Virus record (IMG/VR): IMGVR_UViG_3300031994_000044
Coordinates: 1-64,000 of that record
From: a virus
Taxonomy: Duplodnaviria > Caudoviricetes
Reading direction: 5' to 3' (one strand)
Length of the DNA stretch: 64,000 nucleotides
The position numbers and the translations under genes were made by a program. Of the stretch, positions 18,184-27,698 are shown one piece after another (position 1 is the first letter of the stretch; every line of letters begins with the position of its first letter). The notes beneath the pieces were generated by a model. The model was not told where the DNA came from. It was given only the letters and a program-made list of their open reading frames with translations, and made no database searches.

Positions 18184-19317
18184 TTATTTACAATAAATTT
18201 TTCTTTCAAGCAATTCACCTACTTCAGAGTCGTACACAACATAATATTGGCAAGGTTCCTCACAGGTAAAACCATTTGTCATGGCAAATGTATTATAACC
18301 GATTATACTACCATTAACAACGGCATTTGATATTGAGGTGCATGAATGGAAGTGGCCAAGGAAAATACGGTCCTGATTGAATGTATTATGCCATTTCAAG
18401 GCCAAACGGTTAAGTGCGGGATAAATACCACAAATAGCGCCTGTACCAGTACTCTTTACTTGGAATCCATGACAGAATATAAAGCGTCTGTCGTCATCGG
18501 TATCAACAATAGCCAATTCGCTATCAGGAATATTAAATTCTATAGGTAAATTGGTCAATTTGCATTGTTGCTCGATGTTCTTATACATCATCCACTCATA
18601 ACTCATCTTATAGCCGTTTGAATGCTGTATCTTCTTTGTTGTACGAGAGTGGTTTCCTACAATACCAATGAACAATATCTGCTTAAGTTTGGTTTGCTCA
18701 CACAAATAAGATAAGCCACTATAGATTAGATTTTGTGCCAAAAGAGTTGCCTCTGAAGGACTCAATTGATTTGTTTCTTGAAGTTCCTCATGGATAAAAC
18801 CTGATATGGTATCGCCAAGACTTGCAAAAATCAGATTTTCAACACCATCGGTATTCAAACAATTGGCCAAATTAACAAAGTAATTCTCAATACGCTGCTT
18901 TGCAATATCAATGTTATATTCATTCTTCCCAAGAACTGAAGTCAATGTAACTGTTTCTTCAATATGAGCATCAGAAAACAATGCAATGGCATATTTTTTA
19001 CCGCTAGTCTTCTTTTTTATCTTGAATTCATATTTTTCAAATGGCAATTCCTTAACATTCTTGAAATTTTCATATTCCTTATAAAGAGAATCGTTTATTT
19101 CTTGCTTTTGAGGCTCTTCACTTGAATTAGGTATTGGGTTCTTAAAGGTATAGGTAATACCATTATGTTTGTAAAACCCATTTGTTTTCAATGATTCTGC
19201 AATTGTTTTACGCCTTACAGGTACAACCTTATTAAGTTTACGAATACTTGCATACTCAGTTCCATCACTGCCAATAATAGGTGACGGTACACCATTTCTA
19301 ATTTCAAAATTTGACAT
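18184..19317 (-). CDS. calcineurin-like metallophosphoesterase
   Basis: SDAH, LGDT, VGNHSR, CHG, LGHFH motifs. Confidence 0.85.
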   Translation of the reverse strand: MSNFEIRNGVPSPIIGSDGTEYASIRKLNKVVPVRRKTIAESLKTNGFYKHNGITYTFKNPIPNSSEEPQKQEINDSLYKEYENFKNVKELPFEKYEFKIKKKTSGKKYAIALFSDAHIEETVTLTSVLGKNEYNIDIAKQRIENYFVNLANCLNTDGVENLIFASLGDTISGFIHEELQETNQLSPSEATLLAQNLIYSGLSYLCEQTKLKQILFIGIVGNHSRTTKKIQHSNGYKMSYEWMMYKNIEQQCKLTNLPIEFNIPDSELAIVDTDDDRRFIFCHGFQVKSTGTGAICGIYPALNRLALKWHNTFNQDRIFLGHFHSCTSISNAVVNGSIIGYNTFAMTNGFTCEEPCQYYVVYDSEVGELLERKIYCK

Positions 19318-20063: not shown

Positions 20064-20380
20064 TTAAAAACCAAATACAACAAAATAAAAAAGCCGGCAG
20101 TTTTTGTCGGCTTTTGTGTTTATAACACCTGTGAAATCTGAAAAAAGAAATAAATGATACACATATGGGTTTCACTAACACAGCCCATACACCTTTGCTA
20201 CACTCCCACAAATGTTAGTATTTGCAGTAGCCATTTTCCCGCTGGCCACAAATCATGGTTGTACATTCCATGAGTCACCTCTCATTTATCTCTGTTAATA
20301 CACAGTATATAACCTTCTGAGTTTACTTATCTGTGTCTATCAGCAAGTTCTAGAATATCAAACTGACAAGTTTCTCTGTG

Positions 20381-20471
20381 CGGAGGCAACAGGACTCGAA
20401 CCTGTACGCCGCTTAACGCGACTACTCAGAGTTTAGCAAACTCCTGCCTTACCAATTAGGCTTATGCCTCC
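20381..20471 (-). tRNA. tRNA-Ser(GCT)
   Basis: Cloverleaf, GGAGT-TT GCT AA-ACTCT, long variable arm. Confidence 0.92.
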
Positions 20472-20746
20472 AAAATGCAAGTAGATTTACGAAATAAGGC
20501 TGAGAAACCACACATTAAAGGTGGATACCCGCTATTAGGCACTTGCGCTGTTTTACTCACTTGTTGCTTATCCTCTTACAGCTCTTCACAGAATCGGCTG
20601 CTCTAACACCGACTGGCTTACACCAACTGACACGTTTCATCAAGCGTGGATACTTCTATGCCTCCTGCAACATGACACCATTACCATGGATATCTGTGCC
20701 ATTTACCTTGATTACTCAATGGTCTATACTTGCTATTATTTTAATC

Positions 20747-20823
20747 TGGGTGTCTGCTCAGATTCGAACTGAGGCCTCAACCGCCACAAGGTTGTGTGCT
20801 AAACCACTGACACTACAGACACC
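20747..20823 (-). tRNA. tRNA-His(GTG)
   Basis: CAACC-TT GTG GC-GGTTG, G-1, encoded CCA. Confidence 0.92.
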
Positions 20824-20839
20824 ATAAAATGGATTTCCT

Positions 20840-20924
20840 TGATTGGTATGGGATTCGAACCCTGGTACTATTCCAACCACCTCATTGTGTCGAGGCCCAC
20901 ACTCCCTGTGTGGAGCACCCAATC
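20840..20924 (-). ncRNA. atypical tRNA-like RNA
   Basis: GATTGG/CCAATC terminal helix, 6-bp CCACAC/GTGTGG arm, GGG-TTCGAAT-CCC T-loop; no canonical 7-nt anticodon loop. Confidence 0.5.
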
Positions 20925-21117
20925 GCTGGCATAAGGTCTTTTTCCTTAACATTTCTAAAGCCTTTCGATAATCCATGAATCTACTTGAAATTCGCTAGTT
21001 CAAGGAGTAATATTACCTCTCCCTTCACCCATTTATTTTAACAGTTTAGGGCTTGTACTGCTACCGTTCACGCTATCTGGTTCTACGCCTGTCTTTATAC
21101 TCGTCAGTATTGAGTTG

Positions 21118-21199
21118 TCGGAATGGTGGGATTCGAACCCACACGCCTTTCGGCACAACGTTCTTAGCGTTGCGAGTCTGCCAGTTCCTCCACATTCCG
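21118..21199 (-). tRNA. tRNA-Leu(AAG)
   Basis: CAACG-CT AAG AA-CGTTG, Leu-type variable arm TGCCGAAAGGCGT. Confidence 0.9.
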
Positions 21200-21208
21200 T
21201 AAAAAAAA

Positions 21209-21276
21209 CGGAAAACGGGTTTCAGTGGTACAAATTAACAGTTTGTTACTAAAAATAATTTGCTGTATGTTTTCCT
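21209..21276 (-). ncRNA. ACAGCAA-motif RNA with Asn-like anticodon hairpin
   Basis: GGAAAAC/GTTTTCC closing helix, ATACAGCAA, ACAAA-CT GTT AA-TTTGT, no T arm. Confidence 0.6.
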
Positions 21277-21280
21277 ATTG

Positions 21281-21377
21281 TCGGAACTGTAGGAATCGAA
21301 CCTACCCGAAGTTATTTGTCTAGAATTATTACCTTCACCTACACCATCATAGGCATGTCTCCATCCATCAAATTCCG
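21281..21377 (-). ncRNA. atypical tRNA-like RNA
   Basis: CGGAATT/AGTTCCG acceptor, perfect T arm, 6-nt anticodon-position loop, long variable arm. Confidence 0.55.
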
Positions 21378-21392
21378 ATTTTTTATGATTTG

Positions 21393-21518
21393 CTCCGTGG
21401 GAAAGATTCGAACTTTCGGCTAATGGGTTTACTTTGGTAAATTATATTGCTGTTAATTTTTTTGCCAAAAAATATTTTTTCTACACTCCCATTGCTCTAC
21501 CTCTGAGCTACACACGGA
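21393..21518 (-). ncRNA. tRNA body with about 60-nt ACAGCAA insert replacing the anticodon loop
   Basis: Canonical D arm GCTC/GAGC, ATGGG/CCCAT stem and T arm. Confidence 0.7.
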
Positions 21519-21657
21519 TTACAATTTTCTTCCATAGTCAATGGCTTATGACCGCATTATAGAAAATTAAAAAGACTTTCCTTCAGTTACGCTGAAGCAT
21601 CTGTTTGATTTATTCAGGGACAAATGACGTTACGTTGAGGCGCGACCTCTTAAAATG

Positions 21658-21733
21658 TTGGCCCGACAGGATTTGAACCTGTAAATCTCCTGAGTCAAAG
21701 TCAGGCGTGTTAACCAGGTTACACCACGGGCCA
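21658..21733 (-). tRNA. tRNA-Gln(TTG)
   Basis: CCTGA-CT TTG AC-TCAGG. Confidence 0.92.
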
Positions 21734-21796
21734 TTAAAAATATGTATCATATAATGCATAATTAAAAATATGTATCATATAGTACATATTTAAAAG

Positions 21797-21871
21797 TGGA
21801 CCCAATCAGATTCGAACTGATAAAATGCCGCCGTGCAAGGGCGGTCCTGTACCAATTGAAGGCATAGGCCC
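21797..21871 (-). tRNA. tRNA-Ala(TGC)
   Basis: CCGCC-CT TGC AC-GGCGG, G3:U70. Confidence 0.9.
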
Positions 21872-21963
21872 TTTAAAATGGAGGGGTTTAAAATGAACTT
21901 AATTTGGATGTTCGGAAACTATTCTTGACACATTTGGTACCCTCCCAAGAATAATTAATAATG

Positions 21964-22038
21964 TCGGTTAGGGTGGACTCGAACCACCGACCTCAAACTT
22001 ATCAGGTTTGCCATCTAAACCAACTGATATACTAACCG
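21964..22038 (-). tRNA. tRNA-Ile(GAT)
   Basis: CAAAC-CT GAT AA-GTTTG. Confidence 0.92.
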
Positions 22039-22045
22039 TTGAATG

Positions 22046-22208
22046 TACCCGGTAGGGGATTCGAACCCCTGATTTCAAGGATGGCTTCCTTGCAATGTAT
22101 CGAACATTCTTCATACTCACCATGATTAAAGCAAGGAAAAACTTTTTTCACAGAGAAAAGTAAAACTGTATAAAACCTTGCGTCCTAGGCCAGCTAGACG
22201 AACCGGGC
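22046..22208 (-). tRNA. tRNA-Glu(TTC) with 88-nt intron (22084-22171)
   Basis: Removing insert restores CAAGG-TT TTC AT-CCTTG. Confidence 0.8.
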
Positions 22209-22210
22209 AA

Positions 22211-22660
22211 AAAGCAGCGATTTGGTTCGCTGTCAACCTGCTAAATGCGCTGCCTTAGGCTGCTGCATAAGCAAAAGCATAATTTTCGTTGCCAGTTATT
22301 TTATGGCATCTCGGATGTCTACTTTCATTGTACTCATTAGCAATCAATTCCAAGATGGCCCATATTATTTTTTTTGTCGGATGCCAGGGAGTTGAACCCC
22401 AATTTTAAACCCGAATCAAAATTTTCAAATTACTTGATATTGTACCATGAATCATAAGAACCGTATAACTAGTATGGTTGGTACTCAACATGGCGCACCC
22501 GTTATTAAAACCGTGCTTTCCACGGATTAGACTAAGTTCGCCTTCTTTATACTTCAGAGATATACGTCTCAAGTGCGCCAACTTAGTAAAACCAACACTT
22601 CGTGGACCATAAGGGACTCGAACCCTTGTCTTACTCAACTTTCCTTTGATTATCAACAAC
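22211..22660 (-). ncRNA. ssrA: circularly permuted (two-piece) tmRNA
   Basis: Acceptor piece (T arm plus ATGGTCC-A, about 22660-22603) precedes coding piece (GGGCCAT at 22361; tag GNENYAFAYAAA* 22293-22255); G3:U70. Confidence 0.88.
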
Positions 22661-22670
22661 AAACCGATTG

Positions 22671-22743
22671 TGGGGTGTTATGGAATCGAACCATAGTGAC
22701 AGGTCTGTCGAACCTGCATCCTAAACCGCTAAATGAACTCCCC
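22671..22743 (-). tRNA. tRNA-Val(GAC)-like, atypical (C33)
   Basis: CAGGT-TC GAC AG-ACCTG, A73, one acceptor mismatch. Confidence 0.6.
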
Positions 22744-22873
22744 ATGTAAGAAATTTACATTTCACTATCGTGCCTCCACCATGAGACGCTTGGCGACTTT
22801 ATGTGGCCCGCACTAACTTTTCGTACTTGTTTAAGGTACGTGTGTCCTTCTTTCCTTATATTTTTTAGATTAC

Positions 22874-23002
22874 AGGAATCTATTTATTTTCCATTTCACT
22901 ATGCAGCCATCGGTTCCCCTAAAGCCGCAGTTGGACTCGAACCAACAATCTTTGTTTTGCTTACAAATGTGTTTACCTATTGTAACTTGCTGTTAAATTC
23001 CT
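22874..23002 (-). ncRNA. ACAGCAA-motif RNA with permuted-tRNA (YrlA-like) topology
   Basis: AGGAATTTA/TAGATTCCT closing helix; T arm, loop-closed 7-bp TGCGGCT/GGCTGCA acceptor-like stem, D-like segment. Confidence 0.65.
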
Positions 23003-23012
23003 TTTAATCTAG

Positions 23013-23086
23013 CGGGCCTGACGGGATTCGAACCCGCACCACACGCCGTGACAGGGCGGCATTGTAAACCATTCAACCACAGGCCC
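23013..23086 (-). tRNA. tRNA-Asp(GTC)
   Basis: CCGCC-CT GTC AC-GGCGT. Confidence 0.92.
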
Positions 23087-23279
23087 AATAAAGAAAGGTT
23101 TATGGCATCTTCTTAACTATGCCAACATCTGTTTTAGAGCTCGCAACCTTTCAAACAAAGCTTCCTCGGTACTTCACCACTCACCTCGGTTTAGGTGTAG
23201 TCCTGTCGCTCTACAAGTGCGCTAAATCTTTAATGAATTTAGAAACATGTTCTGACGGTTAAGCGTCATTGTTTTTCTC

Positions 23280-23368
23280 AGAAATCATTTACTGCACCAT
23301 TGCAATCAGCCCATAACGGCTAATATTAGAATCGAACTAATCAAGTTGACATTTGCTGTTAGATTTCT
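23280..23368 (-). ncRNA. ACAGCAA-motif RNA with permuted-tRNA (YrlA-like) topology
   Basis: AGAAATC/GATTTCT closing helix; ATTAG-TTCGATT-CTAAT; ATTAGCC/GGCTGAT; TGCA-ATGG-TGCA. Confidence 0.65.
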
Positions 23369-23377
23369 TAAGTTTAG

Positions 23378-23538
23378 CGGGAGAGGTGGGGTTCGAACCC
23401 ACGACCCACAGATTAGTTCTTGTAGTAAAAGTCGAATTTACTGACCTAGGATGACCGTCAATACAAGAATCAATTTGTTTTCAGAAGTTATTTCTCCTGT
23501 ATACAGTCTGTTGCGCTAACCAGCTACGCTACTCTCCC
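23378..23538 (-). tRNA. tRNA-Asn(GTT) with 87-nt intron (23416-23502)
   Basis: Removing insert restores ACAGA-CT GTT AA-TCTGT. Confidence 0.85.
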
Positions 23539-23546
23539 TTAAAAAA

Positions 23547-23632
23547 CAGGAAACGATATTTATGGAATCGAACCATTTCAATTTTATTTTCAGTAAAATC
23601 TTTAACCTTTTAAAATTTGCTGTATGTTTCCT
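23547..23632 (-). ncRNA. ACAGCAA-motif RNA with Phe-like anticodon arm and T arm
   Basis: AGGAAAC/GTTTCCT; TTTTA-CT GAA AA-TAAAA; ATGG-TTCGATT-CCAT. Confidence 0.6.
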
Positions 23633-23762
23633 TTATTTTTAATTCTTTTATAAATATACAAAAAATAATTTTCTTAAAAAATCAACGGTTCACAATAGAA
23701 CTTCTCACGGTAAAATCCATGGCTTCATTAGGCAAAGCTTCGTTGATTAAGATTTTTTTCAG

Positions 23763-23844
23763 TACCCCAGGTGGGATTCGAACCCACAATGGCTATGCCA
23801 CCACAGCCTAAATGTGGCCCCTATACCATTTCGGGTACTGAGGC
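23763..23844 (-). tRNA. tRNA-Leu(TAG)
   Basis: CCACA-TT TAG GC-TGTGG, long variable arm. Confidence 0.9.
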
Positions 23845-23850
23845 ATATTG

Positions 23851-23921
23851 AGCAGAATATCGGTGTCGAACCGATACCTTGACCTTGGGAAGGTCATATA
23901 CTGCCGCTATACTAATTCTGC
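23851..23921 (-). tRNA. tRNA-Gly(CCC)
   Basis: TGACC-TT CCC AA-GGTCA, U73. Confidence 0.88.
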
Positions 23922-23925
23922 ATTG

Positions 23926-24086
23926 TGGGAAAGGGTGGACTCGAACCACCAGTCTCAAAAGAGAACGGATTGCCAATGTGGTAAATTACGAATTTACGAT
24001 ACTTCATTATTCACATTGGATGGTTTTTACATGTTTACCTTCATGTATTACAGTCCGCGCGGCTACCAATTACCGGTTACTTTCCC
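23926..24086 (-). tRNA. tRNA-Tyr(GTA) with 77-nt intron (23972-24048)
   Basis: Removing insert restores GCGGA-CT GTA AA-TCCGT. Confidence 0.85.
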
Positions 24087-24099
24087 ATTAAAAATCATG

Positions 24100-24171
24100 A
24101 GCCCCCTACCTGAATTGAACAGGTATTTTCGGGTTACAAAGCCGATGTAATAACCATTATACTAAGGAGGC
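24100..24171 (-). tRNA. tRNA-Thr(TGT)
   Basis: TCGGC-TT TGT AA-CCCGA. Confidence 0.85.
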
Positions 24172-24182
24172 AACAAAATAAA

Positions 24183-24243
24183 CGGAAATCCATCAAAAAA
24201 AACATACCATAATTTTTATAAAGATATTGCTGTTGAATTTCCT
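24183..24243 (-). ncRNA. minimal ACAGCAA-motif RNA
   Basis: GGAAATTCA/TGGATTTCC closing helix plus ACAGCAA. Confidence 0.55.
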
Positions 24244-24244
24244 G

Positions 24245-24326
24245 TGGCCAAGGTGGGACTCGAACCCACACGCCTTTCGGCACATGATTTTGAGTCATGG
24301 GTGTCTACCAATTCCACCACTTGGCC
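24245..24326 (-). tRNA. tRNA-Leu(CAA)
   Basis: CATGA-CT CAA AA-TCATG. Confidence 0.92.
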
Positions 24327-24339
24327 ATTGTTAAATTAG

Positions 24340-24459
24340 TCGGGACGTTTGGATTCGAACCAAAACCACGGAAACCCAAATTCATTGCTAAAATATTGCT
24401 GTAAAATTCCGTGTCTGAAATCATAAATGCTACGTGTGCTACCGTTACACCACATCCCA
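24340..24459 (-). ncRNA. tRNA-Pro(TGG)-like RNA with 49-nt ACAGCAA insert in anticodon stem
   Basis: Removing 24384-24432 gives CGGAA-TT TGG GT-TTCCG. Confidence 0.65.
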
Positions 24460-24585
24460 TTAGAAGAGTTTCACTTATGTCCTCTCAGCTGCGTGGGCCC
24501 ACACCCTGAGACGGTTGCTGCACTAAGAAGGAAACACCCAGACGCTCTTCCGAGCGAAAGGAAAACTACTCTACAGCTTTTCACG

Positions 24586-24657
24586 TTGTCTCACCGCGAC
24601 TCGAACACGGACCAAGAGAACCAAAATCTCTTGTGCTAACCATTACACCATGAGACA
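24586..24657 (-). tRNA. tRNA-Gln(TTG), second copy
   Basis: AGAGA-TT TTG GT-TCTCT. Confidence 0.9.
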
Positions 24658-24666
24658 ATTTTAAAG

Positions 24667-24795
24667 TGGTGTATTAGGGAATCGAACCCATTATTAAAGC
24701 CAGTTACTTTGAATTCAATATTAGCTCTTCTCAAATTCTTTTCACGTCACCTCATACTACTTGAATCGGCCGAATTTCATATGAGTTAATACACC
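24667..24795 (-). ncRNA. enlarged tRNA-like RNA
   Basis: GGTGTATTA/TAATACACC terminal helix and GGG-TTCGATT-CCC T-loop, long non-canonical interior. Confidence 0.5.
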
Positions 24796-24799
24796 ATGT

Positions 24800-24930
24800 A
24801 GCTGGGAATTGATGATTCGAACCATCATCTCGGAATTGGAATTTCATTGCTAAAATATTGCTGTTAAATTTCATTGTTCCGACTGAAATTGTTTTGTTTG
24901 CTACGTGTTCTACCCTTAAACTATTCCAGC
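24800..24930 (-). ncRNA. tRNA-Gly(TCC)-like RNA with 58-nt ACAGCAA insert in anticodon stem
   Basis: Removing 24846-24903 gives CGGAA-AT TCC AA-TTCCG. Confidence 0.6.
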
Positions 24931-24945
24931 ATTGAAGAATATATG

Positions 24946-25033
24946 CGGAGGGGGTGGGATTCGAACCCACGGGAGTAGTTAGCTCACACAAGATTTCAAG
25001 TCTAGGCCGTTATGACCACTTCGGCACCCCTCC
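24946..25033 (-). tRNA. tRNA-Ser(TGA)
   Basis: CTAGA-CT TGA AA-TCTTG, long variable arm, G73. Confidence 0.9.
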
Positions 25034-25187
25034 AATAGGCTATATGTTTCACAACATACAACCTTATGTTGTTGTTTTATTTTTCAGATTTCACAAGATG
25101 TCAAAGAACATTTGCATTAACAAATATACAAAGTTTTTTGTTAAAAACAAATTTTTTTTTATTTTTTTTTTCGGCAAGTTATCTCTT

Positions 25188-25203
25188 ATCAAAAACCGTG
25201 CCA
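25188..25203 (-). promoter_or_regulatory. sigma54-like promoter in RNA cluster
   Basis: TGGCACGGTTTTTGAT; further copies 26153-26168 and 28031-28046; TATATTTG (Bacteroidota -7 box) at about 25121-25128. Confidence 0.65.
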
Positions 25204-25211
25204 AACTTTTT

Positions 25212-25285
25212 TGGTGGCGATAGGAAGAGTTGAACTTCCGAATTGGCCTTATGAGAGCCACGTTTTACCGCTAGACTATATCGCC
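25212..25285 (-). tRNA. tRNA-Met/Ile2(CAT)
   Basis: TGGCT-CT CAT AA-GGCCA, encoded CCA. Confidence 0.88.
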
Positions 25286-25295
25286 TTAGCGTTTG

Positions 25296-25369
25296 AGCGG
25301 GTTAAGGGACTCGAACCCTCAAACCTTCTGCATGGCAAGCAGATGCTCTACCAATTGAGCTAAACCCGC
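25296..25369 (-). tRNA. tRNA-Gly(GCC)
   Basis: TCTGC-TT GCC AT-GCAGA. Confidence 0.92.
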
Positions 25370-25373
25370 ATAT

Positions 25374-25544
25374 TTACCATTCCCATCCATCAAATCTTTT
25401 TAATTGTGGCCTAATGTCTTGGTCTATTGGTATTCTTCTAAGTTTTCTATGCCTTTCTTTTTTAACCTTTTTGCGTGAATGATGCCTATTATATGCTTCA
25501 CTATTCATCCATGGTTCAGGTTCATATCCGTATGAAAGTCCCAT
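25374..25544 (-). CDS. small basic protein within tRNA cluster (not in ORF track)
   Basis: 56 aa MGLSYGYEPEPW...RKKVKKERHRKLRR...FDGWEW. Confidence 0.6.
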   Translation of the reverse strand: MGLSYGYEPEPWMNSEAYNRHHSRKKVKKERHRKLRRIPIDQDIRPQLKRFDGWEW

Positions 25545-25572
25545 TTTATTTTATATTTTAAATTTTTAAATG

Positions 25573-26107
25573 TGATGCCGCTGGGAGTCGAACCCAGAAC
25601 CTACAGCTTAGCCTACCACTCTATATTACTATAGCCAAACAAACCATTTGGATGAAAATGTTAAAATGCCTCCTTATTCATCCACTAAGGTACATTTATT
25701 ATTTGTTTGTTGTGGTCTGGACTTGTCTCTTTACCTTATCAGAATTCTTGCAAGTAATGCTTAATCACAAAGTGTTGGATTTCATACCAACAACCTCTTA
25801 CTCCCGCGTAAGTGCTCTATAGAATATTGTAAGCTAACCTTGTTTTAGCACAATTCTGACTTAGGTATCCCCCGTTCAGCCTCTACACGATTATAAGAAG
25901 TGACCATGCTTTATCACTTATTAGATGCCATTTCTGGTTCTTATTTTCGCTCGGCATAGTCCTGGACATTATTGTTTAGTCCACAGCTTTACGTCCTGTT
26001 ACACTAAGGATTTCCGCCGAATTTAGGGGATTCTACCATGGGATTTCTCGCCATAGCACTCCTATTTTTTGAAGGCTGTTGCTCTAATCCAATTGAGCTA
26101 CGGCACC
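25573..26107 (-). tRNA. tRNA-Arg(TCT) interrupted by a group I intron
   Basis: Exons ACAGC-CT T|CT AA-GCTGT. Confidence 0.88.
25612..26071 (-). ncRNA. group I intron (460 nt, no ORF)
   Basis: Inserted after U, ends in G; P-like AAATTCGGCGGAAA, R-like GTAGAGGCTGAACG, S-like AAGAGACAAGTCC. Confidence 0.85.
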
Positions 26108-26176
26108 ATTCTTTCAAAGAACATAATAAATATACAATTAAAATTTCAAATTATCAAATATTATGCCAAACTTTTT

Positions 26177-26980
26177 TTAAAATCTAAATCCTTGTTTAAT
26201 TATTTTATCTTTTTGGATTTTGGCATATGTTCTTGCAATTTTTCGGCCAAAATTATTAATGTTCTTAAGTATTAGATTTTTAGTTAAATTATATTTTTTT
26301 AATTCTTTTTCAAAATTTTCATTATCACTAAGTTCATTATAAATATCAACAATTTCATTATATATTTTGTAACATGGTGTTTTTTTCAAGTTATCATAGG
26401 TGAATACTTCAGGTAATGCCATTACATAAGCGTACATTCCGTTAATATAGCCATCCTGTTCATTCTTTGTACATCCATAGACTAATTTCGCTACTTTTGA
26501 AATAAAATCATTATTATCACTCATATTTGTTATAACTTTTGAATAAACAGAACTGTCAGGAAAATTTCCGCCTATTAAATATTGTTGGTATATGTGTTCA
26601 AACTCATGCTGTATTGTATCCATTACTTCGGTTTTAATTATAGTTCCTGAAACACATGGAATGAATAAGCCTATAACACAATATCTTTTATCAAAACTAC
26701 TCCATCCTTCTGCTTCAACGCCAAATTTATCGTAATATTCTTTTGTATAATAGTTAATTACCTTATATGATATTCCCACATTTATACCAAGTAAATCATA
26801 TTTCAAATATCCATTATATGATGAAAAGAATTTTTCTTTTTCAAAAATTTCCATATTTTCAGAAATATCTTTTTTAAGTATATCAAAAAATTCATTTGTT
26901 TTTTTGGCAATTTCATCAGATATACCAAGTTCTTCCTGTAATATTTTTTTAAATTGAGATTCTGTAATTAAAATTTTCAT
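26177..26980 (-). CDS. hypothetical protein with HExxH motif
   Basis: IQHEFEHIYQ; N-terminal ILITESQFKKIL motif. Confidence 0.75.
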   Translation of the reverse strand: MKILITESQFKKILQEELGISDEIAKKTNEFFDILKKDISENMEIFEKEKFFSSYNGYLKYDLLGINVGISYKVINYYTKEYYDKFGVEAEGWSSFDKRYCVIGLFIPCVSGTIIKTEVMDTIQHEFEHIYQQYLIGGNFPDSSVYSKVITNMSDNNDFISKVAKLVYGCTKNEQDGYINGMYAYVMALPEVFTYDNLKKTPCYKIYNEIVDIYNELSDNENFEKELKKYNLTKNLILKNINNFGRKIARTYAKIQKDKIIKQGFRF

Positions 26981-26999
26981 ATTTTTTAATTATAATTTG

Positions 27000-27071
27000 T
27001 ATGCCAAGAAAGATTTGAACTCTCACTATAACATCCGTAGTGTTATGTGCTATCCGTTACACCATTGGCAC
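27000..27071 (-). tRNA. tRNA-Arg(ACG)
   Basis: TAACA-CT ACG GA-TGTTA. Confidence 0.9.
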
Positions 27072-27080
27072 ATTAATTTG

Positions 27081-27153
27081 TACGCCCGCTGGGACTTGAA
27101 CCCAGGACTCCCACATTAAAAGTGTGGTACTCTACCAACTGAGTTACGAGCGC
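27081..27153 (-). tRNA. tRNA-Lys(TTT)
   Basis: CCACA-CT TTT AA-TGTGG. Confidence 0.93.
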
Positions 27154-27163
27154 ATATTTATTG

Positions 27164-27236
27164 TGGGGAGTGATGGTGCTGACCCATCTTCTTTGGTTTT
27201 TCAGACCAACGCAACAACCGTGTCTGCTAACTCCCC
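27164..27236 (-). tRNA. tRNA-Phe(GAA), atypical T-loop
   Basis: TTGGT-CT GAA AA-ACCAA; T-loop GTCAGCA. Confidence 0.75.
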
Positions 27237-27253
27237 TTAATTGTTATATCAAG

Positions 27254-27327
27254 TCGAGGTGGCGGGACTCGAACCCACGACTTCAGCATCCCAAATGCCG
27301 TGTGCTAGCCAACTGCACCACACCTCG
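27254..27327 (-). tRNA. tRNA-Pro(TGG)
   Basis: CGGCA-TT TGG GA-TGCTG. Confidence 0.92.
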
Positions 27328-27351
27328 TATTATCAAAGAACTATTTATCAG

Positions 27352-27423
27352 AGTCGGCGGAGGGATTTGAACCCACATCGTACTGTTTTGCAGACAGTTA
27401 CCTAACCATTCAGCCACACCGAC
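27352..27423 (-). tRNA. tRNA-Cys(GCA)
   Basis: ACTGT-CT GCA AA-ACAGT, U73. Confidence 0.9.
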
Positions 27424-27430
27424 ATTTTCA

Positions 27431-27506
27431 TCAGTTGGACAGGATTCGAACCTGTGTTTCTTAGCGTCCCGCTTATAGTGTACTAAACCGCTATACGACC
27501 TAACCG
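27431..27506 (-). ncRNA. tRNA-like RNA / pseudo-tRNA, undetermined anticodon
   Basis: Good D and T arms, irregular anticodon arm. Confidence 0.5.
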
Positions 27507-27517
27507 ATGTAATTTTG

Positions 27518-27599
27518 CAAGCAGAACAAGACTCGAACTTGTATCTCACGAATTGGACTCCGTGTGTTTTTCCAAGTGCCTCTTTTAAACTATCTACTC
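27518..27599 (-). ncRNA. tRNA-like RNA / pseudo-tRNA (Trp-like)
   Basis: Perfect T arm, enlarged D loop, non-7-nt loop containing CCA. Confidence 0.5.
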
Positions 27600-27627
27600 T
27601 GTACCGAAGAGCACTCTTCGATATTTG

Positions 27628-27698
27628 CAGGCAGTGAAGGATTCGAACCCTCAACAACGGTTTTGGAGACCGCTATGTTACCATTACACCAACTACCT
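27628..27698 (-). tRNA. tRNA-Trp(CCA)
   Basis: GCGGT-CT CCA AA-ACCGT, G73. Confidence 0.92.

What the first reader, a model, noticed from the sequence alone, without database searches (positions are those of the whole stretch)
22211..22660. Circularly permuted, minimal two-piece tmRNA in a Bacteroidota phage
Seen: the T-arm/acceptor piece (…GGGTTCGAGTCCCTT-ATGGTCC-A, ends 22603) lies upstream of the 5' piece (GGGCCAT, 22361). They pair with G3:U70, and TTGCT/AGTAA forms a P2-like helix. Tag GNENYAFAYAAA* follows ATAACT. The coding piece is only about 150 nt and ends at a terminator-like hairpin, leaving no room for pk2-pk4. Established: permuted tmRNAs are known mainly from some proteobacterial and cyanobacterial lineages. 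Inference: an independent permutation in a phage.
Basis: partly seen in the sequence, partly recalled or inferred. Interest (0 to 1): 0.8.

Follow-up and report, generated by a model that had tools for sequence, protein, structure and literature searches.

The report
Two-piece tmRNA gene in rumen phage
A huge phage from the sheep rumen carries its ribosome-rescue RNA (tmRNA) gene in swapped order, a known gene form here found in a phage lineage whose likely hosts use the normal form, and the spacer between the two halves holds an extra tRNA-shaped RNA of unknown role.

Summary
On the minus strand a 68-nt acceptor piece (22670-22603) lies upstream of a 153-nt coding piece (22361-22209). They pair GGGCCAT/ATGGTCC with G3:U70, and the tag is GNENYAFAYAAA.

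Rfam's permuted-tmRNA model scores 37 bits, below its cut-off of 47. The window's nearest relatives with a 27-nt spacer score 65-68. In 18 distinct relatives the acceptor stem, the T-arm and three inter-piece P2 helices all covary.

The "terminator-like hairpin" is a conserved H-type pseudoknot in the PK2 position, not a conserved terminator. No PK1 was found.

The 241-nt spacer is a lineage-specific insertion. It contains a 125-nt tRNA-shaped module that is kept, with compensatory changes, in three tmRNA lineages and matches no Rfam family.

Permuted tmRNAs in phages are already in print (marine phages), and two-piece forms normally lack PK3-4. What appears new is the lineage. Sister phages carry one-piece tmRNAs. 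In 151 genomes of the likely host phylum, 143 have the one-piece form and none the permuted form. A separate permutation event is therefore likely but not proven.

Production of the two pieces is untested. This scan noted a similar gene before on other DNA (e1-5869850).

The parts
22603..22670 (-). Acceptor piece (68 nt). It starts right after tRNA-Val, whose discriminator is at 22671. Order of elements: P2c strand TGTT 22661-22658; conserved loop GTTGATAA 22657-22650; P2b strand 22649-22644; GAAA 22643-22640; P2a strand 22639-22631 with G22636 bulged; GAC; T-arm 22627-22611; 3' acceptor strand ATGGTCC 22610-22604; discriminator A 22603. No CCA is encoded; the next bases are CGA.
   Evidence: T-arm 90/90 and P1 126/126 canonical cells in 18 rows.
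22362..22602 (-). Intervening segment (spacer) of 241 nt, to be removed by processing. It is a lineage-specific insertion: the nearest relatives have 27 nt here.
   Evidence: 27-nt spacers in L148, L149, L153, L162, L166; 241 nt in L152, L169; the short-spacer form appears as a joint in both DNA and RNA runs, so it is a strain variant; no other copy in the DNA held.
22502..22602 (-). First 101 nt of the spacer, found only in the window-type spacer (window, L152, L169). It has hairpins, including a terminator-like one (22525-22511), and a stretch TGGCGCAC complementary to the 5' strand of the module that follows. Function unknown.
   Evidence: (L170 and L200 have 5-6 nt here instead).
22377..22501 (-). 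tRNA-shaped module inside the spacer (125 nt). It has a 7-bp acceptor-like stem CGGGTGC/GCATCCG followed by A, a 6-bp stem capped by a hairpin, a 7-bp arm with a 10-11-nt loop, and a T-arm with loop TTCAACT. It has no anticodon loop.
   Evidence: RNAalifold on 5 rows gives 31 pairs, 6 with changes on both sides; the module is also in the spacers of L170 and L200/L201; no Rfam family, best E 1.2; no tRNA called here.
22209..22361 (-). Coding piece (153 nt). Order of elements: 5' acceptor strand GGGCCAT 22361-22355; D-loop-like CTTGGAATTGA 22354-22344; P2a strand 22343-22336; AGTA 22334-22331; P2b strand 22330-22325; P2c strand GACA 22319-22316; tag frame; pseudoknot. It ends where tRNA-Glu begins (22208).
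22255..22293 (-). Tag reading frame GGC AAC GAA AAT TAT GCT TTT GCT TAT GCA GCA GCC TAA, which reads GNENYAFAYAAA*, preceded by ATAACT.
   Evidence: ARAGORN reads the same frame in relatives (GNENYAYAYAAA, GNENYAYAVAA).
22215..22238 (-). H-type pseudoknot in the PK2 position. Stem A is GGTT 22238-22235 with AACC 22227-22224. Stem B is CAGCG 22232-22228 with CGCTG 22219-22215. The linking loop is AAAT 22223-22220.
   Evidence: stem B: 7 of 7 pairs with both-sides changes. In relatives the tail after it is CAAAATC or CACAT instead of CTTTTT.
22045..22208 (-). Neighbouring tRNA-Glu(UUC) gene with an 88-nt insertion in the anticodon loop. It is not part of the tmRNA, but it sets the 3' end of the coding piece, and its T-arm caused a spurious one-piece tmRNA match.

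Best explanation
This is a working gene for a two-piece (circularly permuted) tmRNA, set inside the tRNA operon of a huge rumen phage.

Proposed processing (inferred). One precursor is cut by the tRNA-processing enzymes.
- RNase Z cuts after tRNA-Val and after the tmRNA discriminator A (22603).
- RNase P cuts at G1 (22361) and at the 5' end of tRNA-Glu (22208).
- A CCA-adding enzyme completes the acceptor end.

Structure. The 68-nt acceptor piece and the 153-nt coding piece are held together by the 7-bp acceptor stem and a long irregular P2 helix (P2a, P2b, P2c).

Function (inferred). The complex is charged with alanine through G3:U70. With SmpB it enters stalled ribosomes and adds the tag (A)GNENYAFAYAAA.

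The 241-nt spacer is cut out. It carries a tRNA-shaped module that the same enzymes would release.

Shown: the sequence features, their conservation and their covariation. Inferred: processing, charging and tagging.
For: Family match. RF04321 scores 37 bits in the window. Its nearest relatives without the insertion score 65.0-67.8 bits. At least 13 of 19 related loci are over the cut-off of 47; only 150 of 230 rows of that output were shown. Four related phage records also pass the cut-off. ARAGORN calls a permuted tmRNA in 13 of 20 loci.

Arrangement. In 22 of 22 metagenome loci found with an acceptor-piece pattern, a GGG-starting complementary 5' strand lies 21-241 nt downstream. It is followed by the TTGG..TTGA motif and a tag frame.

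Covariation in 18 distinct rows:
- P1: 126/126 canonical cells, 4 pairs with both-sides changes.
- T-arm: 90/90, 4 such pairs.
- P2a: 139/144, 5 such pairs.
- P2b: 87/108.
- P2c: 70/72.
- Pseudoknot stem B: 112/126.
- For each helix, 0 of 500 shuffles reach the observed value, and the slid controls are far lower.
A scan of all column pairs with no structure given ranked P1 and the T-arm first.

Tags. They are conserved in kind: GNENYAYAYAAA, GNTNYSYRMAA, GNTNYRYAMAA, GNKTSYAMAA and others.

Partner genes. SmpB genes occur in 3 of 5 related records with a permuted tmRNA. A PolyA_pol-family enzyme (PF01743), the family of CCA-adding enzymes, occurs in 4 of 5.

RNA libraries. Contigs from three metatranscriptome libraries cover the locus.
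Against: - The window itself is below Rfam's cut-off (37 against 47), and ARAGORN does not call it.
- No PK1 could be identified.
- RNAcofold of the two pieces recovers P1 (6 bp) and the T-arm but not P2a. It prefers a 14-bp helix between the 5' end of the acceptor piece and the pseudoknot region.
- A terminator-like hairpin (22525-22511) lies inside the spacer and could separate the pieces' transcription.
- No SmpB or CCA-enzyme gene is in this record, which is only a 29% fragment.
- The RNA-library contigs span the unprocessed precursor. They may be carried-over DNA, and they show no ends.
- The 5' strand in relatives was picked by complementarity, and the search pattern fixed TCC. The P1 count and the constancy of G3:U70 in relatives are therefore partly built in.
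Confidence: 0.88

Rival explanations
1. The gene form was not invented in this phage lineage. The phages took a ready-made permuted tmRNA from a bacterium or phage of one of the known two-piece lineages (alpha-, beta-proteobacterial or cyanobacterial type).
For: For the relative G002, the best-scoring model in the tmRNA clan is beta_tmRNA RF01850, at 43.7 bits. Two family members (L154, L158/L161) have quite different tags, GNIFQLAPVTSRQAA and DNQIFMQPTLVKNVA, so the family is wider than one host group. tmRNA genes move between phages. I had no alpha, beta or cyanobacterial reference sequences to build a tree.
Against: The 43.7 bits is about half of that model's cut-off of 84. The window's acceptor piece is 96.9% identical over 32 nt to the one-piece tmRNA of crAss-like phage cr106_1, and its P2a strands are nearly the same. 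Most tags start GN and end SYRMAA, SYAMAA or YAVAA. That resembles the one-piece tmRNAs of sister phages (GNNTYAIAA, GNNTYRLAA) and of the Bacteroidales-MAG phylum (DNNYSYRLAA, ANSYSYAMAA). On the exonuclease tree, carriers of the permuted and one-piece forms separate with one change (support 70/87).
Confidence: 0.25
2. In this particular phage the gene is disabled. The 241-nt insertion, with its terminator-like hairpin, breaks the precursor, so the window holds a decaying copy of a gene that works only in the short-spacer relatives.
For: The Rfam score falls from about 66 to 37 bits. A terminator-like site lies at 22525-22511. The stretch TGGCGCAC in the window-only part can pair with the 5' strand of the tRNA-shaped module.
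Against: The same 241-nt form is in three contigs (window, L152, L169) with all helices and an open tag frame intact. Among these three, the tags differ in the same way as among the short-spacer forms. The module in the spacer is kept with compensatory changes in L170 and L200. RNA-library contigs run through the hairpin. Long intervening sequences, one of them with a whole tRNA gene, are reported for accepted permuted tmRNAs (PMC11915505, section read).
Confidence: 0.08
3. It is a one-piece tmRNA that runs from GGGCCAT (22361) to the T-arm at 22080-22053, as the sub-threshold RF00023 match suggests.
For: RF00023 scores 25.6 bits over 22053-22354.
Against: The score is below the cut-off of 47. 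The strand after that T-arm, ACCGGGT, does not pair with GGGCCAT. It pairs with GCCCGGT at 22208, forming tRNA-Glu(UUC) with an insertion. Relatives have an ordinary intronless tRNA-Glu at that place.
Confidence: 0.01

Closest known systems
Two-piece (circularly permuted) tmRNAs of Alphaproteobacteria (Caulobacter), a betaproteobacterial group and cyanobacteria (Rfam RF04321; RF01849-RF01851)
   Same: The gene order is the same: acceptor piece, spacer, coding piece. The acceptor stem and P2 form between two RNAs. G3:U70 is present. The tag frame ends in AA. PK3 and PK4 are missing. Processing by RNase P and tRNase Z is presumed (PMC3985003, passage read). Relatives pass RF04321's cut-off.
   Different: The gene is carried by huge rumen phages. 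The likely host phylum has the one-piece form (143 of 151) and no permuted form (0 of 151). No PK1 was found. P2 has conserved internal loops (AGTA opposite GAA, and GTTGATAA). The one clade-specific score available to me is below cut-off (beta model, 43.7 against 84, for one relative).
Two-piece tmRNAs of marine phages (OM43 phage Melnitz, pelagimyophages, cyanophages; PMC9004378)
   Same: These are phage-borne permuted tmRNA genes. 53 of 133 unique phage tmRNAs were reported as two-piece (passages read).
   Different: Those are described as matching their hosts' alpha- or cyanobacterial two-piece lineages, and 50 of the 53 come from marine or aquatic samples. This family is from ruminant gut. 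It resembles one-piece tmRNAs of Bacteroidota and of crAss-like phages.
One-piece tmRNA of crAss-like phage cr106_1 (MT774378, annotated SsrA) and of sister huge phages G017, G026, G003
   Same: Identity is 96.9% over 32 nt of T-arm and acceptor. The D-loop-like and P2a sequences are nearly the same. The tags are of the same style and the genes sit in tRNA arrays.
   Different: Those genes are in the standard order with several pseudoknots, 304-406 nt long. The window's gene is permuted and shorter.
Permuted tmRNA with an intact tRNA-Ala gene in its intervening sequence, and the 1152-bp permuted gene with a repeat in its spacer (PMC11915505, Results read)
   Same: The spacer of a permuted tmRNA gene carries a cargo with tRNA features, or a long insertion.
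   Different: Here the cargo is not a tRNA. It has no anticodon loop and gets no tRNA or Rfam match. It recurs in three tmRNA lineages.

Membership tests
Permuted (two-piece) tmRNA | The 3' acceptor strand and T-arm are encoded upstream of the 5' acceptor strand, and the two strands pair | tested here: met
   ATGGTCC (22610-22604) pairs with GGGCCAT (22361-22355), 7 of 7 pairs. In 18 rows, 126/126 canonical cells and 4 pairs with compensatory changes. Caveat: the 5' strand in relatives was located by complementarity.
Permuted (two-piece) tmRNA | G3:U70 alanine identity pair and discriminator A | tested here: met
   G22359 pairs with T22606, and A is at 22603. In relatives these positions were fixed by the search pattern.
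Permuted (two-piece) tmRNA | 3' CCA end | tested here: inconclusive
   CCA is not encoded in the window (A-CGA). It is encoded in L160 and L200 (A-CCA). It would have to be added. A PF01743 enzyme is in 4 of 5 related records but not in this fragment.
Permuted (two-piece) tmRNA | T-arm with the tRNA-type T-loop | tested here: met
   AAGGG TTCGAGT CCCTT. 90/90 canonical cells and 4 covarying pairs.
Permuted (two-piece) tmRNA | P2 helix between the pieces, linking the tRNA-like and mRNA-like parts | tested here: met
   P2a 139/144, P2b 87/108, P2c 70/72, each above all 500 shuffles. RNAcofold did not predict P2a.
Permuted (two-piece) tmRNA | Tag reading frame with a resume codon after an A-rich leader, ending in hydrophobic residues and a stop | tested here: met
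   ATAACT-GGC..., GNENYAFAYAAA*. ARAGORN reads the same frame in relatives.
Permuted (two-piece) tmRNA | PK1 upstream of the tag | tested here: inconclusive
   Only 22 nt lie between P2c and the resume codon. The column-pair scan found no covarying pseudoknot there, and I found none on inspecting the alignment.
Permuted (two-piece) tmRNA | PK2 downstream of the tag | tested here: met
   H-type pseudoknot at 22238-22215. Stem B has 7 of 7 pairs with both-sides changes; stem A occurs as GGTT/AACC, GGCT/AGCC and AGTT/AACT.
Permuted (two-piece) tmRNA | Rfam RF04321 gathering score (47 bits) | tested here: not met
   The window scores 37 bits. The shortfall is due to the 241-nt insertion: L148, L149, L162 and L166, with the same stems and a 27-nt spacer, score 65.0-67.8.
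Permuted (two-piece) tmRNA | SmpB partner | tested here: inconclusive
   There is no PF01668 match in this 106-kb record, a 29% fragment. SmpB is present in 3 of 5 related records with a permuted tmRNA. The host's SmpB may also serve.
Permuted (two-piece) tmRNA | Two mature RNAs are made, charged with alanine, and tag proteins | not testable with these tools
   Only contigs of RNA libraries were available. They span the precursor and show no ends.
Standard one-piece tmRNA (RF00023) | 5' strand, tag, pseudoknots, then T-arm and a pairing 3' strand, in that order; gathering score 47 | tested here: not met
   The score is 25.6 bits. The T-arm used belongs to tRNA-Glu, and its 3' strand does not pair with GGGCCAT.
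Alpha-, beta- or cyano-type two-piece tmRNA (RF01849, RF01850, RF01851) | Gathering score of the clade-specific model | tested here: not met
   Only one relative (L013) gave a listed score: RF01850 at 43.7 bits against 84. None was listed for the window. Overlapping matches within a clan are hidden by the tool, so the other two scores were not seen.

The most novel reading that the evidence does not exclude
A tmRNA gene was circularly permuted within a lineage of huge Bacteroidales phages, which would be a further, virus-borne origin of the two-piece form. Its excised spacer has since become a slot for a structured RNA: a 125-130-nt tRNA-shaped molecule with an acceptor-like stem and a T-arm but no anticodon. 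This RNA is co-transcribed with the tmRNA halves and released by RNase P and RNase Z. It would have a function of its own, for example as a decoy or helper in tRNA/tmRNA processing or in trans-translation.
Probability: 0.3. Interest if true: 0.7.

Novelty: new variant of a known kind. Interest (0 to 1): 0.5.

Why it matters
Two-piece tmRNAs are a textbook case of a gene rearranged without loss of function. They are said to occupy three main bacterial clades and some mitochondria.

This phage family offers a rare chance to study how such a permutation arises and is tolerated. Its sister phages keep the one-piece form, and its likely hosts have only the one-piece form.

The family also gives a compact natural design: a 68-nt piece plus a 153-nt piece, one pseudoknot, and no PK1 found. 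That tests which tmRNA parts are dispensable.

It shows that annotation tools lose such genes once the spacer grows. ARAGORN missed 7 of 20 loci, and Rfam scored the window below its cut-off.

The tRNA-shaped RNA in the spacer is uncatalogued. It adds to the odd tRNA-derived RNAs in this phage's array.

The basic finding, a permuted tmRNA in a phage, is not new.

Tried and rejected
- One-piece reading (RF00023, 25.6 bits). Rejected: its T-arm belongs to tRNA-Glu.
- Synteny search around the exonuclease gene. The tRNA array is not next to that gene in relatives, so whole records were searched instead.
- Coding-piece pattern in viral contigs. Of 14 stretches, 3 were tmRNAs already found and 11 were chance matches without tmRNA features.
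- Acceptor-piece pattern in viral contigs. It returned 6 loci, all of the cr106_1 type. ARAGORN called a one-piece tmRNA in 5 of the 6 and none in L007.
- PHROGs and Pfam on 18 large ORFs. Only SbcC-like, exonuclease, HATPase and primase-like matches, with no hallmark that names the phage family. tblastn against known phages found nothing above 32% identity.
- MAFFT alignments of whole precursors (A2, A3). They put the 5' acceptor strand of the window group one column off. I therefore did not use the count of structure pairs and counted pairs in scripts on anchored blocks.
- A covariance model of my own was not built.
- PK1. I looked for a pairing of AGTA with TACT or TGCT, which fits some lineages but not the window group, and for a local hairpin CATC-CGA-GATG, which is in the window group only. 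Neither is general.
- A 5' hairpin in the acceptor piece (TTTG/CAAA). It is possible in each lineage on inspection, but it competes with P2b and P2c, which the column scan favours. I did not count it.
- RNAcofold's 14-bp helix between the two outer ends. Checked against the alignment, it is not kept in L159 and L154.
- ORFs in the spacer. The only long one (85 aa, TTG start, 22405-22662) begins inside the acceptor piece and cannot exist in L170 or L200. No protein cargo was found.
- Spacer compared with all held DNA. No other copies.
- Rfam on the module and on the region. Nothing.
- Read laying. Only contigs were available, so there is no information on RNA ends, strand or level. The parts without cover prove nothing.
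- Tree of the tRNA-like domains with alpha, beta and cyanobacterial references. Not done, because I had no such sequences.
- Supplementary Table S2 of PMC11915505, which gives the taxonomic breakdown of gene forms, could not be seen. It may list phage or Bacteroidota permuted entries.
- Literature searches: 'permuted tmRNA' + 'phage' gave 3 papers; 'two-piece tmRNA' gave 47, of which 30 were listed; 'tmRNA' + 'huge phages' gave 21, of which 15 were listed. Judged from the titles and abstract openings listed and the passages read, none of those shown describes a permuted tmRNA of rumen or Bacteroidota phages. Seventeen of the 47 hits and six of the 21 were not displayed.
Full report
WHAT IS THERE

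The window is part of a 106,307-bp IMG/VR virus record that CheckV rates as 29% complete. Its relatives are huge phages of 340-413 kb.

A tRNA array lies on the minus strand from 20380 to 27698. Between tRNA-Val and the next tRNA, the minus strand reads in this order:
- a stretch ending AAGGG-TTCGAGT-CCCTT-ATGGTCC-A (discriminator at 22603);
- 241 nt of other sequence;
- GGGCCAT (from 22361), followed by CTTGGAATTGA, TTGCT..., ATAACT and the frame GGC...GCC TAA (22293-22255), which reads GNENYAFAYAAA;
- a hairpin with a T-run.

GGGCCAT pairs with ATGGTCC in all seven positions, with G3:U70.

DATABASE TESTS

ARAGORN tRNAs and no tmRNA in the window. Rfam at gathering thresholds finds only tRNAs.

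In a permissive search of 1.1 kb, RF04321 (tmRNA_permuted) matches 22255-22657(-) at 37 bits (cut-off 47, E 1.3e-5), with the 241 nt treated as an insertion. RF00023 (standard tmRNA) matches 22053-22354 at 25.6 bits.

The RF00023 match is spurious. Its T-arm belongs to a tRNA that begins GCCCGGT at 22208 and ends ACCGGGT-A near 22046.

RELATIVES

The only hit among named phages was the annotated one-piece tmRNA of crAss-like phage cr106_1. It is 96.9% identical over 32 nt of T-arm and acceptor.

I reached related huge-phage records through the exonuclease gene at 18184-19317. There are 29 records, counting the window's own.
- Four have RF04321 matches over the cut-off: G002 63.8, G011 69.3, G012 63.7 and G019 52 bits. 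With the window's 37-bit match, that makes five carriers of the permuted form.
- Three have a one-piece tmRNA over the RF00023 cut-off: G017 109.5, G026 101.2 and G003 86.9 bits.
- Twenty-one show neither form. Six of these are rated at least 93% complete.

A degenerate pattern taken from the acceptor piece alone found 22 metagenome loci. In 22 of 22, a GGG-starting 7-mer complementary to the 3' strand lies 21-241 nt downstream. It is followed by the TTGG..TTGA motif, a P2 strand and a tag frame. By my rough estimate, chance would give such a 7-mer in about one locus in seven.

At least 13 of 19 of these loci pass RF04321's cut-off (150 of 230 rows were shown). ARAGORN calls a permuted tmRNA in 13 of 20 loci and reads the same frames that I read. 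It misses the window, L152, L169, L170, L159, L154 and L158.

L148, L149, L162 and L166 have the window's own acceptor stem and a 27-nt spacer, and they score 65.0-67.8 bits. The window's low score is therefore due to its spacer.

STRUCTURE

Of the 23 sequences (the window plus 22), I dropped three exact duplicates (L156, L161, L164) and two with cut coding pieces (L153, L166). That left 18 rows. L170 and L200 were found later and are not in the counts.

MAFFT misplaced the 5' strand by one column in some rows. I therefore aligned anchored blocks in a script. A scan of all column pairs with no structure given ranked the cross-piece acceptor stem and the T-arm first. Next came the pseudoknot stems and three helices between the acceptor piece and the coding piece.

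Counts:
- P1: 126/126 canonical cells, 4 pairs with changes on both sides.
- T-arm: 90/90, 4 such pairs.
- P2a (22639-22631 with 22343-22336): 139/144, 5 such pairs.
- P2b (22649-22644 with 22330-22325): 87/108. Here tandem A.A or G.A in some lineages stands where others have U-G or C-G.
- P2c (22661-22658 with 22319-22316): 70/72, 3 such pairs.
- Pseudoknot stem B: 112/126, 7 of 7 such pairs.

In each helix, 0 of 500 shuffles reached the observed number, and partners slid by 1-3 columns paired far less.

Two caveats apply. The rows are related. The 5' strand was located by complementarity and the pattern fixed TCC, so the P1 figures are partly built in. The fixed distance of the 5' strand to the TTGG..TTGA motif is independent support.

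An example of covariation between near relatives: the window has TTGCT/AGTAA and AAGGG/CCCTT where L148 has CAGCT/AGTTG and ATGGG/CCCAT.

Between the P2 segments lie invariant loops, AGTA opposite GAA and GTTGATAA opposite AAGTA. From memory only, AGUA/GAA recalls the bulged-G (sarcin-ricin type) motif; I did not test this.

THE 'TERMINATOR'

The scan does flag 22232-22215 as terminator-like. In relatives, however, the T-run is replaced (CAAAATC in L148, CACAT in L162), while the hairpin stem covaries: CAGCG/CGCTG, CGACG/CGTCG, CCACG/CGTGG, GAGGGG/CCCCTC. A second helix, GGTT/AACC (GGCT/AGCC and AGTT/AACT elsewhere), interlocks with it, leaving a conserved AAAT loop.

This is an H-type pseudoknot in the PK2 position. 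In many members the next tRNA begins 4-10 nt after it; in the window that is at 22208.

A review states that two-piece coding pieces typically hold only PK1 and PK2 (PMC3985003, passage read). The lack of PK3-4 is therefore normal.

I found no PK1. Only 22 nt separate P2c from the resume codon, and no covarying pairing appeared there.

RNAcofold of the two pieces gives -64.7 kcal/mol. It recovers P1 (6 bp) and the T-arm but not P2a. It proposes a 14-bp helix between the two outer ends, which is not kept in L159 or L154 when checked against the alignment.

THE SPACER

Spacers in the family measure 21, 27, 58, 60, 63, 65, 97, 109, 115/116, 130 and 241 nt, and about 150 nt in L170 and L200.

The 241-nt form occurs in the window, L152 and L169. 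It has no other copy in the DNA held, no credible ORF and no Rfam match.

Its last part (22501-22377) folds into a four-way junction:
- a 7-bp acceptor-like stem followed by A;
- a 6-bp stem with a capped hairpin;
- a 7-bp arm with a 10-11-nt loop;
- a T-arm with loop TTCAACT.

The same module fills the spacer in two other settings. One is L170, a contig in a MAG titled 'uncultured Bacteroidales bacterium'. The other is L200/L201, whose tmRNA has a different acceptor stem, GGGCCCG/CGGGTCC. Of the 6 loci found by the pattern, these are the 2 real ones; the other 4 are chance matches.

Across five rows, 6 of 31 predicted pairs change on both sides and stay paired. The module therefore looks like a selected RNA and not filler. 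It is dispensable for the tmRNA, since the nearest relatives lack it.

The first 101 nt of the spacer are peculiar to the window type. They contain a terminator-like hairpin.

The tmRNA database paper reports a permuted tmRNA with an intact tRNA-Ala in its intervening sequence as a unique feature, and a 1152-bp permuted gene with a repeat in its spacer (PMC11915505, Results read).

EXPRESSION

The DNA occurs in sheep and cattle gut metagenomes. Twenty runs from 14 studies hold all or part of it, and six of those runs are RNA libraries.

Contigs of two sheep RNA libraries cover 22312-22651 and 22295-22662 without a difference. One cattle RNA contig covers 22172-22628. These span the unprocessed precursor and may be carried-over DNA, and contigs show no ends.

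A joint that skips 22367-22596 with 16 other letters is the short-spacer strain. It appears in a DNA run as well, so it is not RNA processing.

HOW IT MOST LIKELY WORKS

All four ends of the two pieces abut tRNA-type processing sites, so RNase Z, RNase P and a CCA-adding enzyme would suffice. That is inference.

Related records with permuted tmRNAs encode SmpB (3 of 5) and a PF01743 enzyme (4 of 5). The window's fragment shows neither.

Charging by AlaRS and tagging follow from G3:U70 and the tag frame, through established knowledge of tmRNA.

ORIGIN AND HOST

In 151 genomes sampled from the phylum of the Bacteroidales MAG, 143 have a one-piece tmRNA over the cut-off and none has a permuted one. 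The sub-threshold RF04321 hits for which both coordinates were listed overlap those one-piece genes.

Tags in that phylum (GEYNYALAA, DNNYSYRLAA, ANSYSYAMAA) resemble the phage tags. The one-piece tmRNAs of sister phages read GNNTYAIAA and GNNTYRLAA.

On an exonuclease tree, the five carriers of the permuted form and the three carriers of the one-piece form can be separated by one change. Support is 70/87, and this holds in 80% of bootstrap trees.

Together this favours a permutation within this phage group, starting from a Bacteroidota-type one-piece gene. Without alpha, beta and cyanobacterial references I could not test the alternative by a tree. The clade-specific beta model is the best of its clan for one relative, at half its cut-off.

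WHAT IS KNOWN

Permuted tmRNAs are established in three main bacterial clades and in mitochondria (PMC11915505, PMC3985003). Huge phages are known to carry tmRNA and SmpB (PMC7162821, passage read). Two-piece tmRNAs are common in marine phages (PMC9004378).

My three literature searches showed no description of this rumen or Bacteroidota phage family.

Earlier notes of this scan report a similar gene in another putative Bacteroidota jumbo phage (e1-5869850) and protein-coding cargo in the spacers of other phage tmRNAs (for example e1-6108175). I treated these as leads only.

VERDICT

This is a real permuted tmRNA gene. It is a new lineage and variant of a known kind: compact, with no PK1 found and one pseudoknot. 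In this window its spacer is enlarged by an uncatalogued tRNA-shaped RNA. Interest is moderate.

Noticed in passing
window 22045-22208 (-): tRNA-Glu(UUC) with an 88-nt insertion (22171-22084) in the anticodon loop. One cattle RNA-library contig joins 22172 to 22083, giving the loop TTTTCAT. This is either a spliced RNA or a strain without the insertion. L170 has an intronless tRNA-Glu at the same place.
   Followed up: partly
window 23377-23538, 23925-24086, 21392-21518, about 24339-24459 (-): ARAGORN in intron mode calls further tRNAs with insertions of 49-87 nt near the anticodon (Asn, Asp, Asn, Pro). Rfam's tRNA model spans 23378-23538 as a 161-nt match. These are too short for group I introns.
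   Followed up: no
window 22922-22994 (-): A weak tRNA-like match (17.7 bits, cut-off 29) with a good T-arm. It may be a decayed or unusual tRNA.
   Followed up: no
L171 (G019 215142-215570), L172, L173: Related huge phages encode their own SmpB (159-172 bits) and a PolyA_pol/CCA-type nucleotidyltransferase. These genes are not next to the tmRNA gene.
   Followed up: partly
L154, L158/L161: Two more distant members of the same permuted family have long, different tags (GNIFQLAPVTSRQAA, DNQIFMQPTLVKNVA) and a T-run after the pseudoknot. ARAGORN misses both.
   Followed up: no
L001 5303-6041 (cr106_1): The crAss-like phage with the similar one-piece tmRNA has an annotated TROVE (Ro60-like) gene 2.3 kb downstream of it.
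   Followed up: no
L013, L150 spacers (about 115 nt): In the G002 and L150 lineages the spacer is closed by a 9-10-bp stem (TTACAAAGT.../...ACTTTGTAA) that brings the two processing sites together. Its inner part is conserved between these two otherwise different tmRNAs.
   Followed up: no
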